Below, one piece after another: positions 20,559 through 37,927 of a DNA stretch of 64,000 nt. The translations under genes were made by a program, and so were the position numbers. Position 1 is the stretch's first letter; each line of letters begins with the position of its first letter. The notes under the pieces are model-generated. The model was not told the DNA's origin, made no database searches, and worked only from the letters and a program-made list of their open reading frames with translations. Origin of the DNA: Patescibacteria group bacterium (lineage in GTDB: Bacteria > Patescibacteriota > Patescibacteriia > Buchananbacterales > UBA6539); assembly GCA_041662625.1 (NCBI GenBank), contig JBAZSB010000001.1:374467-438466 (forward strand). Direction: 5' to 3'.

Positions 20559-22652
20559 ATGGAGGAAAAAATCGGTCAACTTAAATATTTAGTGATAAGT
20601 GTCATACTTTGTCTGGTATTGATTTTTAATTTTCTCAATTGGAGCAACCAAATTATTGGCCTGGGTTTTGGCCTAATCTACCTTTTATTTTATAGTTTTA
20701 TTTTTGGCTCAATCTTCATCAACAAAAAGGGCTGGCAAATTATTTTTGGCCTGCTTTTTTTATTCGCCCTGATTGCCGTTTTGGGCGCCGTAGCAATTTA
20801 TTTTTATGAACTCAATGATTATTTATTTATTCTTTTAATCCTTTTAATTCCCCTGATCTTAGTTACTCCCTATTATTTGGTCCAACCCAAAGAAAAATTT
20901 TCTTTGAAAAAAACCATCAAAAAATACTTGGATAAATTTGACCAGCGGCGGGAGCCAAAAACTAATTTTATTTTAGTGATTGCCTACCTGGCTTTGATCT
21001 CTTTGGCTTTTGCTTTTTTAATTAAAGGCCAGACCACCGAGTCAATTCAGGCACCCTGGCAAGTGGTTTCTTCCAAATTCCTGCCGGTTTATTTTCTATC
21101 CAGCTTTGTTCTTTTAACTTACCTTTTTCGTTCCCGCCGGACCAAGCTGCCTTTGATTTTATTAGTTATTCACACATTTTTGAGCAGCACGGTGGCTTTG
21201 CTGGTCTATAAAATTGGCTACGGTTTTGATCCTTTTATTCATCAGGCTACCGAAAGGATTATTGCCCAAACCGGAACCATCTGGCCTAAACCTCTTTATT
21301 ATCTTGGCCAATATGCCATAGTAGTCTTTTTTCATAAATTAACCACTTTAGACATTGCTTTAATTGATCGGATCTTAGTGCCGAGTCTTTTTTCTTTATT
21401 CCTGCCAACGATTATTTTTTATACCTTCAGCCACTGGGTGGAAAAAAAGTTTGCCTTAATCTTGGCCTTGGCGGTTTTGGTTATTCCCTACTCCGGTTTT
21501 ATTATGACCGCCCCCCAAAATTTAGCCAATCTGATTTTCATTCTCACTATTATTTTGTCGCTGCTTTATTACAAAAACCAAATCAGCCCCATCATTTTAT
21601 ACCTTCTGACCTTAGCTACCATTGCCATTCATCCCATGGCTGGCATTCCCCTATTGATTGCCGTATTTTTGCTGAATTTATTCAAATTCCTTTACACCAG
21701 CTACATTAAATATTTAAGTCTTTACTTTTTTTCCGCCCTGGTCTTTGTCATCTTTTTGCCTTTGGCTTTTATCAGCAATGGTTCCACCCTGAATCTAAAA
21801 CCGGTTTTCAAGCTTTCTGATTTTAAATGGTTTGGCTGGATTGATAAATTTGATTTGCCGCTAAATTTGGTTTATTTGGTCAATGCAAATAAAATAATTC
21901 TTGCCAGCCTAATTATTATAATCGGTCTAGTTTATCTTGCTAAAAATAAACTGCTAAAAAACAACGCCGGCTACCTGATGGCAGCTTTGATTATCGTTGT
22001 AGATTTTGTCATTACCAAATACTTTCTGGCCTTCCCCGACCTCCAAGATTATGACAAAAATTTCTTTGTCGCCCGGCTAGCAATTATTGCTTTCTATATA
22101 TTGCTGCCTTTCTTTCTGCTTGGCCTTTATTTCATTAGCAAAAAATTATATCAGCATGATTTTTACACCCGCCTGTTGCTTATTTTAGTTTTAGCCGGCA
22201 GCCTAACCATTTCTTTGTATCTTTCTTATCCCCGCCTAAATCAATATGAACCAGCCAAATTCTTTAGTGTTTCGGCTTCTGATATCAAAGCTGTTGATTT
22301 CATCGAAAAAAGCGCCGCACCAAACCATCTGGTTTTGGCTAATCAGATGATTGGGGTAACGGCAATCAAAGAATTTGGATTTAAAAAATATTATAATAAT
22401 CAATTTTATTATTCCATGCCCATGGGTAGTCCGCGCACTTTTTATGAATACTACTTGGAAATGATTTACCAAGGTGCCAAAAGAGAAACTATGGAAAAAG
22501 CGATGAATGAAGCCGGGGTCACGGAAGCTTATTTTGTTTTGAATCAATACTGGAATAATTCAACTAAAATTGCCAAGCAAGCAACAGAATCAGCCGATAA
22601 AATTTACGATATTGATAATGGCAAAATTTATATCTTTAAATATGTAAAATAA
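20559..22652 (+). CDS. large polytopic membrane protein
   Basis: 697 aa with about 14 TM helices. TGcTAAAAT (-10) ends 6 nt before the ATG, so the mRNA is possibly leaderless. Confidence 0.5.
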   Translation: MEEKIGQLKYLVISVILCLVLIFNFLNWSNQIIGLGFGLIYLLFYSFIFGSIFINKKGWQIIFGLLFLFALIAVLGAVAIYFYELNDYLFILLILLIPLILVTPYYLVQPKEKFSLKKTIKKYLDKFDQRREPKTNFILVIAYLALISLAFAFLIKGQTTESIQAPWQVVSSKFLPVYFLSSFVLLTYLFRSRRTKLPLILLVIHTFLSSTVALLVYKIGYGFDPFIHQATERIIAQTGTIWPKPLYYLGQYAIVVFFHKLTTLDIALIDRILVPSLFSLFLPTIIFYTFSHWVEKKFALILALAVLVIPYSGFIMTAPQNLANLIFILTIILSLLYYKNQISPIILYLLTLATIAIHPMAGIPLLIAVFLLNLFKFLYTSYIKYLSLYFFSALVFVIFLPLAFISNGSTLNLKPVFKLSDFKWFGWIDKFDLPLNLVYLVNANKIILASLIIIIGLVYLAKNKLLKNNAGYLMAALIIVVDFVITKYFLAFPDLQDYDKNFFVARLAIIAFYILLPFFLLGLYFISKKLYQHDFYTRLLLILVLAGSLTISLYLSYPRLNQYEPAKFFSVSASDIKAVDFIEKSAAPNHLVLANQMIGVTAIKEFGFKKYYNNQFYYSMPMGSPRTFYEYYLEMIYQGAKRETMEKAMNEAGVTEAYFVLNQYWNNSTKIAKQATESADKIYDIDNGKIYIFKYVK

Positions 22653-22755: not shown

Positions 22756-22783
22756 TTGACAAAGCCAAAAATAATCCTACAAT
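22756..22783 (+). promoter_or_regulatory. sigma70-type promoter TTGACA-N16-TACAAT
   Basis: ttgaca at 22756-22761 and tacaat at 22778-22783. GGGAGG Shine-Dalgarno at 22826-22831. Confidence 0.55.
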
Positions 22784-22843
22784 GAATATTCACTAGCCCC
22801 TTATCAAGGGCACTTTCGTAACAAAGGGAGGTACAAGAAAATC

Positions 22844-23200
22844 ATGGACATAAATGAGTTGCTGCAGGAAATCGGCGAGTCACAACCAGGGCTTGCTAAA
22901 AGATTCAGGCAAGTCTTTACGACGGTACAAGAAGGTCTCAAGGATAGGTGTCCAAATTCGCCAGAATTAGCCTGGGCCATCAGGGCCATTCTCCCTCGGG
23001 AAGAAGCGAAACCGGGCCAAAGTGAAAAAGATCGACCGCTAGTCAAAGGCCAAAACCTTTGGGCTTTGCTAGTCGAAATCTATCCCAGCCACGCCACCAA
23101 CTCGCCTGAACTCGATATCAGCGCCCTACTCAACCGGTGGCTACCAATGATTGGCGCCTTGATCCACATCAATCGAAAGCGATCAAAGCCAATCTGCTGA
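22844..23200 (+). CDS. hypothetical 118-aa protein (island ORF A), GC-rich, no recognisable family
   Basis: ORF with Shine-Dalgarno, own promoter and own terminator. Composition (about 55-60% GC) contrasts with the host (about 30%). Confidence 0.5.
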   Translation: MDINELLQEIGESQPGLAKRFRQVFTTVQEGLKDRCPNSPELAWAIRAILPREEAKPGQSEKDRPLVKGQNLWALLVEIYPSHATNSPELDISALLNRWLPMIGALIHINRKRSKPIC

Positions 23201-23217
23201 TAATGCTTCTAGTGATT

Positions 23218-23251
23218 CCACCAAGACATTGATCTTGGTGGCTCTTTTTTA
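23218..23251 (+). terminator. intrinsic terminator ccaccaaga-cattga-tcttggtgg + CTCTTTTTT
   Basis: 9-bp GC-rich stem plus U-tract 18 nt after the ORF A stop. Confidence 0.7.
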
Positions 23252-23282
23252 TTCTGGTTTGAATTCTGGTTCTATCTTTAAG

Positions 23283-23311
23283 TTGACAATTTCCTATAAT
23301 TAAGCTATAAT
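23283..23311 (+). promoter_or_regulatory. perfect-consensus sigma70 promoter TTGACA-N17-TATAAT
   Basis: ttgaca at 23283-23288, 17-nt spacer, tataat at 23306-23311. Confidence 0.65.
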
Positions 23312-23317
23312 AAAAAA

Positions 23318-23354
23318 TCAAGACCCATCGTCTTGACCCAGCAATGATTTGCTG
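23318..23354 (+). promoter_or_regulatory. two operator-like palindromes at/after the predicted TSS: tcaagac-ccatc-gtcttga and cagcaa-tgat-ttgctg
   Basis: Inverted repeats at 23318-23336 and 23339-23354, between the -10 and the Shine-Dalgarno. Confidence 0.5.
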
Positions 23355-23396
23355 GTAGTTCCAAACCCGGCAAGCAACAAAGCGAAGGAGGTTCCA

Positions 23397-23570
23397 ATGC
23401 AAGGTTGGTATTTGGTAGTTGATGTAACACCGGAGCAACTTGAGGCGATGCGAGGCAAACTCGAACCGGTTATTCGGGCCGCGCTCGAAGAACTCCACCT
23501 CACGCCGCGCGTGGATGACACGAATGCAGCGGGTAAACCCGGACTCAACATCAACTTCGTCACCGGCTGA
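23397..23570 (+). CDS. hypothetical 57-aa protein (island ORF B)
   Basis: AAGGAGG Shine-Dalgarno at 23385-23391, 6 nt before ATG 23397. The ORF-track start at 23349 lacks a Shine-Dalgarno. Confidence 0.5.
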   Translation: MQGWYLVVDVTPEQLEAMRGKLEPVIRAALEELHLTPRVDDTNAAGKPGLNINFVTG

Positions 23571-23598
23571 TTCGTCATCGGCTAAAAGGAGGCACCCT

Positions 23599-23940
23599 AT
23601 GCAAAAGCTAAAGCGCACATTCGACGGATTAGCGGCAGGTTGCCCCTGGCTACCCAGTCTCCTCCATGACCTGCCAGGAGCCTTTACCCGGGAAAGCGAA
23701 GAAATCCTCTGCGACGGAATTGTTGCTCTGACCAGCGAAGACCCCCAAGACCATTTGGTCGGGGATGATCTCTGGAATGAGTTACATCGACAGTTCCCCG
23801 CCGGCGACGACATCAATTTCCTCGGCCTGGTAGGCGCACTGGAAGAAAAACTCAGCTACATCAAGGCTATGGCAGCCAGATGTGCTGATGCGGCTGCCGA
23901 TGCAGAACCTGAGGAGACTACCGTCGTTCTCGTCGGCTGA
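23599..23940 (+). CDS. hypothetical acidic 113-aa protein (island ORF C)
   Basis: AAAGGAGG at 23583-23591 precedes ATG 23599. It is 28 nt downstream of ORF B (bicistronic). D/E-rich. The ORF-track 166-aa version from 23440 overlaps ORF B out of frame and lacks a Shine-Dalgarno. Confidence 0.5.
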   Translation: MQKLKRTFDGLAAGCPWLPSLLHDLPGAFTRESEEILCDGIVALTSEDPQDHLVGDDLWNELHRQFPAGDDINFLGLVGALEEKLSYIKAMAARCADAAADAEPEETTVVLVG

Positions 23941-23979
23941 GACAGCCCCCTGCCCTCCCTTGGCACTACTGCCTAAGGG

Positions 23980-24014
23980 GACGACCATGCACTCGCGTGG
24001 TCGTCATTTTCTTT
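23980..24014 (+). terminator. intrinsic terminator gacgacca-tgcactcgcg-tggtcgtc + ATTTTCTTT
   Basis: 8-bp stem plus T-rich tail 40 nt after the ORF C stop. It abuts the stop codon of the convergent host gene at 24013. Confidence 0.65.
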
Positions 24015-24597
24015 AGCAACATTTTTTCTGAAAAGCCAAAGCTAACTGGCCGGCTTCGGTCATATCCTTACCCAAAGCAATAAAACCGTGATTTTTCAAA
24101 ACTAAAAAATTATTATTTTCTAAAATAGACAAAGCTTGTCTGACTAATTCGAGGCTGCCATAAGGGGCTTCTTTTTTGGTTTGCGGGATATTTAATTTTT
24201 TCGCCTGGGCTAAAATTTGCTGACAGTGGCCATGAAAGATGGCATTAACTTCCACTCGCTTCTGATAAAGGGCAAAATGAAGCATCGTTTCCGAAGATGG
24301 CTCCATTACCCCTTCAGCTTGAATAATTTTTCTTTCAAAATCACAATTAAAGATTTTGACAAAAGATTGATTAGTTAAATCTTCTTTGGCTTTTAGGCCT
24401 GCGCCGGTAATAATAAAAATGTTTTCTCCTTCTTTTAGGCGAAAACTGAGATTCCCGGCTGAGCAACCATCGTAAACCGGCGCCAAATTAGACTGGTGAA
24501 AATCCTGGCACCATTTGATTAGTTCAATAATTCTTGGATCTTGGGGCGCTTGCTTTTTTATAAATTCGGTTTTAAATTTTACACCGGGATACACCAT
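24013..24597 (-). CDS. class II aldolase/adducin family protein (MtnB-like dehydratase/aldolase)
   Basis: 194 aa with HGH-type metal-binding motifs (AIFHGHC). Adjacent to an e2B2-family isomerase. Confidence 0.6.
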   Translation of the reverse strand: MVYPGVKFKTEFIKKQAPQDPRIIELIKWCQDFHQSNLAPVYDGCSAGNLSFRLKEGENIFIITGAGLKAKEDLTNQSFVKIFNCDFERKIIQAEGVMEPSSETMLHFALYQKRVEVNAIFHGHCQQILAQAKKLNIPQTKKEAPYGSLELVRQALSILENNNFLVLKNHGFIALGKDMTEAGQLALAFQKKCC

Positions 24598-27486: not shown

Positions 27487-27768
27487 TTAGGAGTTGTGTG
27501 GATCATGCCGCAGGGCATTATCTAGTGCAAGCCGGCTTTCCGTCAAAGGTCCACCCATGCGGGCAACTTCCTGTCTGATTTCGTTAACCAGTTCTTCGGG
27601 TAACCCTTGCACCGTTCGCATAATGTCGTAGAGGGCCTCTGGTGTTGCTCCCTCATAAGAGCATAACCTGCGAACAGTTTCGGCTTGTTTGGCAACGAGC
27701 GCGTGCCGAAATATCAAGCTGTGCTCAGCTAGTTTTCGGCCAAGTGCCTTCAATACTCTTCTAAACAT
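27487..27768 (-). CDS. hypothetical 93-aa protein, GC-rich (about 53%), inside the IR-bounded segment
   Basis: AAAGGAGA Shine-Dalgarno 5 nt before the ATG (minus strand). A stem-loop (7-bp stem ccctggg / cccaggg style, large loop) plus T-rich tail follows the stop. Confidence 0.45.
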   Translation of the reverse strand: MFRRVLKALGRKLAEHSLIFRHALVAKQAETVRRLCSYEGATPEALYDIMRTVQGLPEELVNEIRQEVARMGGPLTESRLALDNALRHDPHNS

Positions 27769-27841
27769 CGTCGTCTCCTTTACCGTAGATTCATTTTTTG
27801 CCTTACTTGACCATAACTAGCTACAACTATCGTGAAATTAT

Positions 27842-27869
27842 TACCAATTATGGTTAGATAAGGTATCTG
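27842..27869 (-). promoter_or_regulatory. direct repeats TTATCTAAC (x2, 19-bp register) with an embedded tagata-agg-tatct palindrome in the leader of ORF 27487..27768
   Basis: gttagataa at 27842-27850 and 27861-27869 (plus strand). TTGACA/TTGACT hexamers lie upstream (minus strand) at about 27893-27915. Confidence 0.35.
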
Positions 27870-27949
27870 AAGTTAGATAAATAACAATAGCATATTTATA
27901 TATTTTTGTCAATAAGAAATAGTCAAAAAATACTAAATTTATCCAAAAA

Positions 27950-37327: not shown

Positions 37328-37927
37328 TCACTTAAATTTGGCTAATTTCTTAAAAAAATTAAGGGTATACAGGTAATCACTGCGGTATTGCCTTTTAATT
37401 TCGGGAAACTTAATGGCTTGCCATTTTCTTTTAACTTTACCGTCAGTCAAAAACCATTTAACAATCGTGGTTAAATCATAACCCCGAATTGACATCGGGG
37501 TGATTATCCGATAAACACCCATTGGCCCCAAAGTATCAACCTTATCAAATGCTTTCATAATATCCCCTTCTAAACCACCAGCTTGCTTTTTACCGCTACG
37601 ATGAGTAGAGATTATCCCACAAACTACCTTAATTTTTTCCTTAGGAAAATTGATACTTTCCAAAACCGACTTGGCGATTTTGGCCGATTGCAAATTATGG
37701 CCATTGATAGGACTTTTATTAAAAGCAGCCAAATCATGCAGTAAACAACTGGCCACTAAAATTTCTAGATCAGCCCCTTTTTTCTTACCAAACTTTTCAG
37801 CGTTTTTCCAAACCCGCCAGTGATGTGACGGACCATGACAAGGCAAAAATTTATTGCTTTTCTGCCAAAGTTGATTAATTTTTTGACTAATCTTCTTTTC
37901 CCAATACTTATAATCTTTCGTCTTCAT
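37328..37927 (-). CDS. HD-domain phosphohydrolase
   Basis: H...HD motif (CLLHDLAAF). Confidence 0.6.
   Translation of the reverse strand: MKTKDYKYWEKKISQKINQLWQKSNKFLPCHGPSHHWRVWKNAEKFGKKKGADLEILVASCLLHDLAAFNKSPINGHNLQSAKIAKSVLESINFPKEKIKVVCGIISTHRSGKKQAGGLEGDIMKAFDKVDTLGPMGVYRIITPMSIRGYDLTTIVKWFLTDGKVKRKWQAIKFPEIKRQYRSDYLYTLNFFKKLAKFK

What the first reader, a model, noticed from the sequence alone, without database searches (positions are those of the whole stretch)
23283..23396. Perfect sigma70 consensus promoter followed by two tandem palindromic operator-like sites
TTGACA-17nt-TATAAT is a perfect consensus, which is rare in natural promoters. Directly at and after the predicted TSS sit tcaagac-ccatc-gtcttga (23318-23336) and cagcaa-tgat-ttgctg (23339-23354). 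This is the layout of a very strong promoter held in check by a dimeric repressor, as in TA autoregulation, phage immunity or anti-defense early genes. The two palindromes differ in sequence, which suggests two different binders or a composite site.
Basis: seen in the sequence. Interest (0 to 1): 0.7.

Follow-up and report, generated by a model that had tools for sequence, protein, structure and literature searches.

The report
Strong promoter with 5' leader hairpins
A textbook-perfect bacterial promoter in a Patescibacteria genome drives a tiny, fast-evolving gene of unknown function, and the two palindromes right after it look more like RNA hairpins at the start of the message than like repressor binding sites, which would be an ordinary kind of element.

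Summary
TTGACA-17-TATAAT (23283-23311) is the only 12/12 promoter match in the window. Two perfect 7-bp palindromes follow it, at 23318-23336 and 23338-23355.

They lie in a 1.25-kb GC-rich island (50-58% GC against about 36%) of a Patescibacteria MAG. The island has two promoter-to-terminator units: ORF A, then ORF B plus ORF C.

Only ORF C has relatives: five other proteins, all at the same chromosomal position in related Patescibacteria. Each has a near-consensus promoter.

Palindrome 1 is identical in its arms (14/14) and in its position, 6 nt after the -10, in three lineages. Their flanking genes are only 71-92% identical and the three loops all differ. Palindrome 2 is in two lineages, with one compensatory G:C to A:T change, and is absent from the third.

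ORF A and ORF B are missing from the relatives that keep palindrome 1. ORF C proteins are acidic and show no DNA-binding fold.

My best reading is a strong, probably constitutive promoter whose transcript begins with 5'-terminal stem-loops that stabilise the mRNA. A host-factor operator or an antisense terminator remains possible. No TSS or binding data exist. The element type is ordinary, but the hypervariable gene it drives is a minor curiosity.

The parts
22756..22783 (+). Promoter P1 of the ORF A unit (TTGACA-16-TACAAT, 11/12)
22844..23200 (+). ORF A, 118 aa, basic (pI 8.7). It has no homologue in any database searched. It may be a very distant paralogue of ORF C, sharing a local GxxLWxxLxxxxP motif.
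23218..23241 (+). Intrinsic terminator of the ORF A unit: 9-bp stem followed by CTCTTTTTTA
23283..23288 (+). -35 hexamer TTGACA of promoter P2
   Evidence: It is conserved in L024.
23306..23311 (+). -10 hexamer TATAAT of P2, after a 17-nt spacer
   Evidence: L027 has TATAAT and L024 has TATACT.
23312..23317 (+). A6 tract between the -10 and palindrome 1. The predicted TSS is at about 23317-23318. Read on the minus strand it is the T-run that follows the hairpin.
   Evidence: It reads aaaaaa, aaaaca and aaaaaa in the three lineages.
23318..23336 (+). Palindrome/hairpin 1: TCAAGAC-ccatc-GTCTTGA
   Evidence: The arms are invariant in three lineages and the loops are ccatc, ctgtg and aaggg.
23338..23355 (+). 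Palindrome/hairpin 2: CCAGCAA-tgat-TTGCTGG
   Evidence: L027 has CCAACAA-ccat-TTGTTGG, a compensatory change. It is absent from L024.
23385..23391 (+). Shine-Dalgarno AAGGAGG of ORF B
23397..23570 (+). ORF B, 57 aa, found only in this species. It has coding-like GC1/2/3 (0.70/0.39/0.60). L027 and L024 have no counterpart.
23586..23592 (+). Shine-Dalgarno AAGGAGG of ORF C
23599..23940 (+). ORF C, 113 aa, acidic and all-helical. It belongs to a six-protein family confined to syntenic loci of related Patescibacteria.
23980..24015 (+). Intrinsic terminator of the ORF B-C unit: 11-bp stem followed by ATTTTCTTTA. The stem is conserved in relatives and has one compensatory change in L024.

Best explanation
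P2 (23283-23311) is a genuine, very strong and probably constitutive sigma70-type promoter. It drives a small operon (ORF B, ORF C) that ends at the intrinsic terminator at 23980-24005. Transcription is predicted to start at about 23317-23318. The mRNA would then begin, with 0-1 unpaired nucleotide, with stem-loop 1 (7 bp, 5-nt loop), followed immediately by stem-loop 2 (7 bp, 4-nt loop).

The palindromes therefore act as RNA. A 5'-terminal stem-loop denies 5'-end-dependent decay enzymes (RppH, RNase E or RNase J) the single-stranded 5' end they need, which stabilises the message and adds to the output of the strong promoter.

Shown: the promoter match and its conservation; the perfect pairing and its conservation; the fixed 6-nt distance from the -10; the absence of a U-tract after either hairpin on the sense strand.

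Inferred: the TSS, that the hairpins form in vivo, and that they prolong mRNA half-life.
For: 1. The promoter is the only 12/12 match in the window, and the five ORF C family loci with visible upstream DNA each have a 9-12/12 promoter at a similar distance from the start codon.
2. The first 44 nt of the predicted transcript fold into exactly the two hairpins: -18.1 kcal/mol, z -5.2, 69% of the ensemble. None of the other 48 promoter-like sites in the window has a comparably structured start.
3. Hairpin 1 starts exactly 6 nt after the -10 in all three lineages that have it, although the promoter spacer, the loop and the downstream leader have diverged. A 5'-terminal hairpin requires this distance to be held.
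4. All 35 base-pair cells in three lineages are Watson-Crick. The loops are free to vary (ccatc, ctgtg, aaggg; tgat, ccat). The one arm substitution seen is compensatory (G:C to A:U in hairpin 2).
5. The operon's own terminator stem serves as an internal control RNA hairpin and behaves the same way: 10 of 11 pairs are unchanged and 1 is compensatory between the window and L024.
6. Neither hairpin is followed by a U-run on the sense strand, so they are not attenuators.
7. The ORF A unit also has a hairpin, of unrelated sequence, near its predicted 5' end.
8. Established knowledge: BsRppH needs at least two unpaired 5' nucleotides, and 5'-terminal stem-loops stabilise mRNA (review PMC3997798, which cites Emory, Bouvet and Belasco 1992).
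Against: - There is no experimental TSS. If transcription starts inside or after hairpin 1, the model fails for hairpin 1.
- Only three lineages carry hairpin 1 and only two carry hairpin 2. One compensatory change has no statistical weight (245 of 500 shuffles reach it).
- The arms of hairpin 1 never vary (14/14), which fits sequence-specific recognition by a protein equally well.
- The more distant family members (L028, L031, L033) do without any 5' hairpin, so the hairpins are not essential to expression of the family.
- The hairpin plus the conserved A6 tract also reads as an intrinsic terminator on the opposite strand.
- Which 5'-end-dependent RNases this organism has was not examined.
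Confidence: 0.5

Rival explanations
1. Operator sites. One or both palindromes are bound as double-stranded DNA by a dimeric repressor that blocks RNA polymerase at +1 to +38. Given the comparative data, the binder would have to be a host factor encoded elsewhere, or ORF C itself. It cannot be ORF A or ORF B.
For: - The palindromes overlap the predicted TSS, like lacO1.
- The 7-N5-7 and 7-N4-7 geometries put half-site centres 11-12 bp apart, which suits a dimer.
- The arms of palindrome 1 are 14/14 identical while the central 5 nt are free, in lineages whose flanking genes are 71-73% identical. That is the pattern expected of half-sites plus a spacer.
Against: - No cassette protein has a DNA-binding domain.
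- ORF C family proteins are acidic (pI 4.1-4.6 in five of six) and the model has no HTH or RHH neighbour.
- ORF A and ORF B are absent where palindrome 1 persists.
- ORF C homologues in L028, L031 and L033 have strong promoters and no palindrome.
- The two palindromes share no half-site.
- Neither palindrome recurs in the 64-kb window, even with 2 mismatches, nor elsewhere in the related loci.
- Natural operators are usually imperfect palindromes. Here all five instances are perfect and one change is compensatory.
- GTDB-wide hits to the motif are scattered in unrelated taxa; the one inspected is a terminator and two more match on both strands.
Confidence: 0.2
2. Antisense terminator. Read on the minus strand, hairpin 1 followed by the T6 run (GGGTCAAGACgatggGTCTTGA-TTTTTTATTAT) is an intrinsic terminator. 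It would stop read-through from the convergent aldolase/MtnA/GT4 operon before that transcription reaches promoter P2 and ORF A.
For: - The consensus scan calls it a terminator-like site on the minus strand.
- The minus-strand RNA folds at -20.6 kcal/mol, z -6.0.
- The T-run is kept in L024 (T6) and largely in L027 (TGTTTTATTAT).
- The hairpin at 23980-24005 has no T-run on the minus strand, so the aldolase operon has no obvious terminator of its own.
- The same motif flanked by A and T runs acts as a bidirectional terminator in an unrelated Peribacteria genome.
Against: - The stem is short and has only 3 G:C pairs in its 7 perfect Watson-Crick pairs.
- The site lies about 680 nt beyond the aldolase stop codon, across the whole antisense ORF C/B region.
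- This reading does not explain hairpin 2.
- It does not explain why the -10 hexamer sits exactly 6 nt from the hairpin in all three lineages.
- L028 and L033 have the same convergent layout with no such hairpin.
- An A-rich stretch between the -10 and +1 is in any case common in strong promoters (background knowledge).
Confidence: 0.12
3. Recombination boundary. Hairpin 1 and the terminator hairpin are the conserved edges of a slot in which divergent ORF C alleles are exchanged. Either they are simply where homologous recombination breakpoints fall, or they are sites for a recombinase that recognises hairpins.
For: - Window and L027 are 92% identical in the aldolase flank, and 27 of the 30 nt visible upstream of hairpin 1 match.
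- Between the loop of hairpin 1 and the terminator stem they share too little DNA similarity for blastn to align, and ORF C is 41% identical in protein.
- Only 21 of 45 codons for identical residues are the same, which indicates old alleles rather than recent divergence.
Against: - No recombinase gene is near.
- The two hairpins are unrelated in sequence.
- Neither is repeated elsewhere.
- Only 30 nt of upstream flank are visible in L027.
- Ordinary homologous recombination in the flanks needs no special site.
Confidence: 0.08

Closest known systems
5'-terminal mRNA stabiliser stem-loops (E. coli ompA and papA leaders; B. subtilis ermC and aprE leaders)
   Same: A stable hairpin sits at the very 5' end of a transcript from a strong promoter, with at most 1-2 unpaired 5' nucleotides. 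No U-tract follows it on the sense strand. The stem is conserved and the loop is free. The mechanism (blocking RppH and RNase E or RNase J access) comes from the literature (PMC3997798).
   Different: No TSS or half-life has been measured here. There are two tandem hairpins rather than one, and the second is dispensable in one lineage. The host is a Patescibacteria bacterium whose RNA-decay machinery was not examined. There is no sequence similarity to any described stabiliser and no Rfam hit.
Repressor operators overlapping +1 of strong promoters (lacO1; TA-operon operators; phage immunity operators)
   Same: Perfect inverted repeats of 18-19 bp lie at +1 to +38 of a consensus promoter. The half-sites are conserved and the central spacer is variable.
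   Different: No candidate DNA-binding protein lies in or next to the cassette. The two repeats are unrelated to each other. Neither recurs elsewhere in the sequences searched. The palindrome does not co-occur with any cassette gene across relatives.
Intrinsic (Rho-independent) terminators, read on the minus strand
   Same: A hairpin immediately followed by a T6 run. An identical motif serves as a terminator elsewhere.
   Different: It lies inside the initial transcribed region of a promoter on the other strand. The stem is weak. It is far from the nearest gene end on the minus strand.

Membership tests
Sigma70-type promoter | -35 TTGACA and -10 TATAAT hexamers separated by 16-18 nt | tested here: met
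   12/12 with a 17-nt spacer, the only perfect match in the window.
Sigma70-type promoter | Conserved at the orthologous position upstream of the gene in relatives | tested here: met
   L024 has TTGACA-17-TATACT. L027 keeps the TATAAT -10, but its contig starts inside the spacer. L028, L031 and L033 score 9-10/12.
Sigma70-type promoter | Transcription start 5-9 nt downstream of the -10 | not testable with these tools
   No RNA data are available. The TSS at about 23317-23318 is a prediction.
5'-terminal mRNA stabiliser stem-loop | Stable stem-loop with at most 1-2 unpaired nt at the 5' end of the transcript | tested here: inconclusive
   The hairpin starts 6 nt after the -10 in three lineages and is stable (-18.1 kcal/mol for the two hairpins). 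The TSS, however, is only predicted.
5'-terminal mRNA stabiliser stem-loop | Selection on base pairing: pairs kept, loops free, compensatory changes | tested here: inconclusive
   35 of 35 cells are paired, the loops vary and there is 1 compensatory pair. With only three sequences there is no statistical power.
5'-terminal mRNA stabiliser stem-loop | Not an attenuator: no U-tract after the hairpin on the sense strand | tested here: met
   Hairpin 1 is followed by CCCAGC and hairpin 2 by TAGTTCC.
5'-terminal mRNA stabiliser stem-loop | Lengthens mRNA half-life | not testable with these tools
   This needs rifampicin-chase or reporter experiments.
Repressor-operator module encoded by the cassette (TA autoregulation, phage immunity or anti-defence type) | Inverted repeat overlapping the promoter or TSS | tested here: met
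   Palindromes at predicted +1 to +38.
Repressor-operator module encoded by the cassette (TA autoregulation, phage immunity or anti-defence type) | A DNA-binding protein (HTH, RHH or AbrB) encoded in the same cassette | tested here: not met
   No Pfam, PHROG or PADLOC hit for ORF A, B or C. The ORF C model has no DNA-binding neighbour, and the ORF C family is acidic in five of six members. The ORF A model was too poor to judge.
Repressor-operator module encoded by the cassette (TA autoregulation, phage immunity or anti-defence type) | Operator and repressor gene occur together in relatives | tested here: not met
   Palindrome 1 persists without ORF A or ORF B (L024, L027). ORF C homologues persist without a palindrome (L028, L031, L033).
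Repressor-operator module encoded by the cassette (TA autoregulation, phage immunity or anti-defence type) | Membership of a known toxin-antitoxin or defence gene family | tested here: not met
   No PADLOC or Pfam hit. ORF C stands alone in the relatives.
Repressor-operator module encoded by the cassette (TA autoregulation, phage immunity or anti-defence type) | Protein binding and repression | not testable with these tools
   This needs EMSA, footprinting or reporter assays.
Intrinsic terminator (minus strand) | G+C-containing stem followed directly by a U-run | tested here: met
   The scan hit at 23339-23315 on the minus strand has 10 pairs including G-U, 3 G:C, then TTTATTATAG after TTT. 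The fold is -20.6 kcal/mol.
Intrinsic terminator (minus strand) | Located at the 3' end of a transcription unit on that strand | tested here: inconclusive
   The nearest minus-strand gene ends at 24013, about 680 nt upstream of the site on that strand. The intervening hairpin lacks a T-run on the minus strand.

The most novel reading that the evidence does not exclude
The locus could be a conserved 'expression slot' in a clade of Patescibacteria. A fixed strong promoter with a 5' hairpin on one side and a fixed terminator hairpin on the other would bracket a small acidic protein gene whose alleles are anciently divergent: 41% protein identity between genomes whose flanks are 92% identical in DNA. 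The alleles would be swapped between lineages, with the invariant palindrome serving as a cassette-exchange or recognition site and the protein acting as a hypervariable immunity, anti-defence or host-interaction factor.
Probability: 0.07. Interest if true: 0.7.

Novelty: new member of a known kind. Interest (0 to 1): 0.3.

Why it matters
The element itself, a consensus promoter plus leader hairpins, is a familiar way to get high and stable expression and would not surprise a specialist. Two things give it modest value.

First, it marks a gene that this reduced Patescibacteria genome apparently expresses very strongly. That gene belongs to a six-member family with no known function or fold. 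Its GC content is far above that of the genome. Its alleles are deeply divergent between close relatives.

Second, the conserved promoter and hairpin could serve as an expression part for Patescibacteria, which remain largely genetically intractable, if the predicted TSS and stabilising effect are confirmed.

Tried and rejected
- **Known RNA family.** Rfam gave no hit at gathering thresholds over the window, and nothing meaningful at E up to 1 over the island. No tRNA or tmRNA was found.
- **Phage, plasmid or vector origin.** blastn in distant mode found no match to 50,697 phage or 72,556 plasmid records. The motif is absent from IMG/VR.
- **Mobile-element ends.** No convincing flanking direct or inverted repeats were found.
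- **TA or defence system.** No PADLOC, Pfam or PHROG hits.
- **Word-indexed homologue searches for ORF A, B and C.** Each returned only itself. Only the exhaustive HMMER search found the ORF C family.
- **Empty-site comparison through neighbouring genes.** The aldolase query found nothing in GTDB genomes. The MtnA query gave 19 metagenome loci, none carrying an ORF C homologue or the palindrome.
- **Palindrome as a widespread operator.** The GTDB scan for AAAANATCAAGAC-N5-GTCTTGA gave 16 scattered hits in unrelated phyla. The one inspected is a bidirectional terminator.
- **ORF B or ORF D as relatives of ORF C.** No similarity.
- **Structure of ORF A.** The single-sequence AF2 model had pLDDT 50 and was unusable.
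- **ORF C as a lipoprotein.** Rejected by inspection: LAAGC resembles a lipobox, but there is no hydrophobic h-region before it and the Cys is not conserved.

Full report
**1. The observation.**
TTGACA lies at 23283-23288, followed by a 17-nt spacer and TATAAT at 23306-23311. After six A residues comes TCAAGAC-ccatc-GTCTTGA (23318-23336). One base later comes CCAGCAA-tgat-TTGCTGG (23338-23355), which is one pair longer on each side than reported.

The promoter is the only 12/12 match in the window. With one mismatch allowed there are 4 sites against 0.84 expected.

Each palindrome is unique in the window even with two mismatches allowed. Perfect 7-bp hairpins are common, however: 66 observed against about 51 in Markov simulations. 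An adjacent pair turns up in 34% of simulations. The palindromes alone are therefore not beyond chance.

Position is what sets them apart. Of 49 promoter-like sites in the window, this is the only one whose first 45 transcribed bases fold strongly (-18.1 kcal/mol). Background 45-mers average -4.45 with sd 3.2, and 0.27% reach -18. The 44-nt leader has z = -5.2 against dinucleotide shuffles.

**2. Context.**
The site lies in a 1.25-kb island of 50-58% GC, in a window that averages about 36%. The source is a Patescibacteria MAG: NCBI names ORF A and ORF C WC675_01945 and WC675_01955, on a 922-kb contig.

The island holds two tidy transcription units:
- P1 (TTGACA-16-TACAAT, 22756-22783), ORF A (22844-23200, 118 aa), terminator 23218-23241.
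- P2 (the finding), two hairpins, ORF B (23397-23570, 57 aa), ORF C (23599-23940, 113 aa), terminator 23980-24005.

ORF B and ORF C have AAGGAGG ribosome-binding sites; ORF A has GGGAGG about 13 nt before its ATG. All three show a coding-type GC1 > GC3 > GC2 pattern, with GC3 of 54-60% against 35-41% in the neighbouring genes. None matches Pfam, PHROGs or PADLOC. The island matches no phage or plasmid record and no Rfam family. Three other metagenome contigs carry the same locus almost unchanged.

**3. Relatives.**
Word-indexed searches found only self-hits for ORF A, B and C. An exhaustive HMMER search with ORF C found five real homologues of 87-123 aa (E from 8e-17 to 3e-4). Each is a singleton cluster.

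Four of the five lie in the same chromosomal place in other Patescibacteria contigs. They sit directly downstream of the orthologue of the 697-aa membrane protein, where the contig reaches it, and upstream of the convergent aldolase or GT4 genes, inside a cell-envelope glycosylation cluster. The fifth, P0008, is known only from short contigs (L031, L032) that show small neighbouring ORFs and none of these flanking genes. ORF C is therefore a vertically resident but very fast-diverging gene, not a recent foreign insertion.

ORF A and ORF B have no counterpart in any of these loci. ORF A shows only a weak local resemblance to the family, the motif GxxLWxxLxxxxP (pairwise E 0.023; hhalign E 4e-4 at probability 33%; hmmsearch E 0.13). 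L031 and L032 carry a clearer tandem paralogue (E 2.7e-6).

**4. What the relatives say about the promoter and the palindromes.**
Of the six distinct family loci, the five with visible upstream DNA have a 9-12/12 sigma70-type promoter 43-85 nt upstream of the start codon, and L027 keeps the TATAAT -10. The promoter is therefore real, and strong expression is a family trait.

The three closest lineages read as follows:

| Locus | Flank identity to window | -10 | Tract | Palindrome 1 | Palindrome 2 |
|---|---|---|---|---|---|
| window | - | TATAAT | aaaaaa | TCAAGAC-ccatc-GTCTTGA | CCAGCAA-tgat-TTGCTGG |
| L027 | 92% | TATAAT | aaaaca | TCAAGAC-ctgtg-GTCTTGA | CCAACAA-ccat-TTGTTGG |
| L024 | 71-73% | TATACT | aaaaaa | TCAAGAC-aaggg-GTCTTGA | absent |

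- Hairpin 1 keeps all 14 arm bases and its 6-nt distance from the -10, while its loop is free.
- Hairpin 2 is dispensable and shows one compensatory G:C to A:T change.
- All 35 pair cells are Watson-Crick, but three sequences give no statistical power.
- The three more distant loci (L028, L031, L033) have no 5' hairpin.
- The operon's terminator stem behaves like hairpin 1. Ten of its 11 pairs are unchanged and one is compensatory in L024. An invariant stem at this divergence is therefore also what a purely structural RNA hairpin shows here.

**5. Mechanism.**
A cassette-encoded repressor is not supported:
- No DNA-binding domain was found in any cassette protein.
- ORF A and ORF B are absent where palindrome 1 persists.
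- ORF C homologues exist without palindromes.
- The two palindromes share no half-site.

The reading that fits most observations is that the palindromes act in the RNA. The transcript would begin at about 23317-23318 with two consecutive stem-loops. A 5'-terminal stem-loop with fewer than two unpaired 5' nucleotides blocks RppH and 5'-end-dependent RNases and stabilises mRNA (review PMC3997798). This explains the fixed -10-to-hairpin distance, the perfect pairing with free loops, the compensatory change, and the lack of a sense-strand U-tract. I give it 0.5.

The rivals are:
- A trans-acting host repressor that recognises the invariant arms (0.2).
- A minus-strand intrinsic terminator formed by hairpin 1 plus the T6 run. 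The scan flags it, and the convergent aldolase operon has no terminator of its own (0.12).
- A recombination boundary (0.08).

**6. A side result.**
Window and L027 are 92% identical over 417 nt of the aldolase flank. They match at 27 of the 30 visible bases upstream of hairpin 1. Between the hairpin-1 loop and the terminator stem they share too little DNA similarity for blastn to align, and ORF C is 41% identical in protein. Only 21 of 45 codons for identical residues are the same. ORF C alleles are thus old and divergent, and they sit in a conserved frame of promoter, hairpin and terminator. What the protein does is unknown.

**7. Verdict.**
The promoter is real and conserved, and the palindromes are functional elements. 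The repressor-operator interpretation is not supported for cassette proteins and is less likely than leader-RNA hairpins overall. The element is a new member of a known kind. Interest is modest (0.3) and rests mainly on the unknown, strongly expressed, hypervariable gene family it serves.

Noticed in passing
window 22790-24010: A GC-rich island (50-58% GC against about 36%) holds three small genes. ORF A and ORF B have no homologue in the word-indexed search of 5.8 billion protein clusters (each returned only itself) or in any fetched locus. High GC in the ORF C gene relative to its flanks recurs in L024, L027 and L028 but not in L031 or L033.
   Followed up: partly
window 23599-23940 vs L027 111-446: ORF C is 41% identical in protein between two genomes whose flanking aldolase gene is 92% identical in DNA. 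Synonymous sites are largely scrambled (21 of 45 identical codons). These are anciently divergent alleles in a conserved frame.
   Followed up: partly
window 27487-27912 (minus strand): A second GC-richer small ORF with no family match (93 aa, pI 9.0, 51% GC). It has an extended -10 promoter (TTGACA-17-TGcTATTGT, 27912-27884) and a roughly 110-nt leader containing a long hairpin (z -2.5). It is not related to ORF A, B or C.
   Followed up: partly
window 23556-23585: A near-perfect 15-nt tandem duplication spans the ORF B stop codon: TTCGTCACCGGCTGA / TTCGTCATCGGCTAA. The ORF B C-terminus (...NINFVTG*) resembles the internal NF(L) motif and the ...VLVG* / ...VLTG* ends of the ORF C family. ORF B may therefore be a deleted remnant of a tandem family copy. 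hhalign does not support this.
   Followed up: partly
L031 191-658 and L032 109-570: A 153-155-aa protein immediately upstream of the ORF C homologue P0008 is a tandem paralogue of the family in its C-terminal half (hmmsearch E 2.7e-6). A further small gene with its own TTGACA promoter follows downstream.
   Followed up: no
window 37456-37501: This is the only other pair of adjacent perfect 7-bp hairpins in the window. It lies inside the coding region of ORF 37328-37927 (minus strand) and is probably chance.
   Followed up: no
window 23295-23300: A second TATAAT hexamer lies inside the promoter spacer (cctataattaagctataat). It is only 6 nt from the -35, so it is not usable with that -35. It is conserved in L027.
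   Followed up: no
window 20559-22652 and L023, L028, L033: A conserved 697-700-aa polytopic membrane protein with no Pfam domain lies next to a PMT_2 (GT-C type) glycosyltransferase. It always precedes the ORF C family gene.
   Followed up: no
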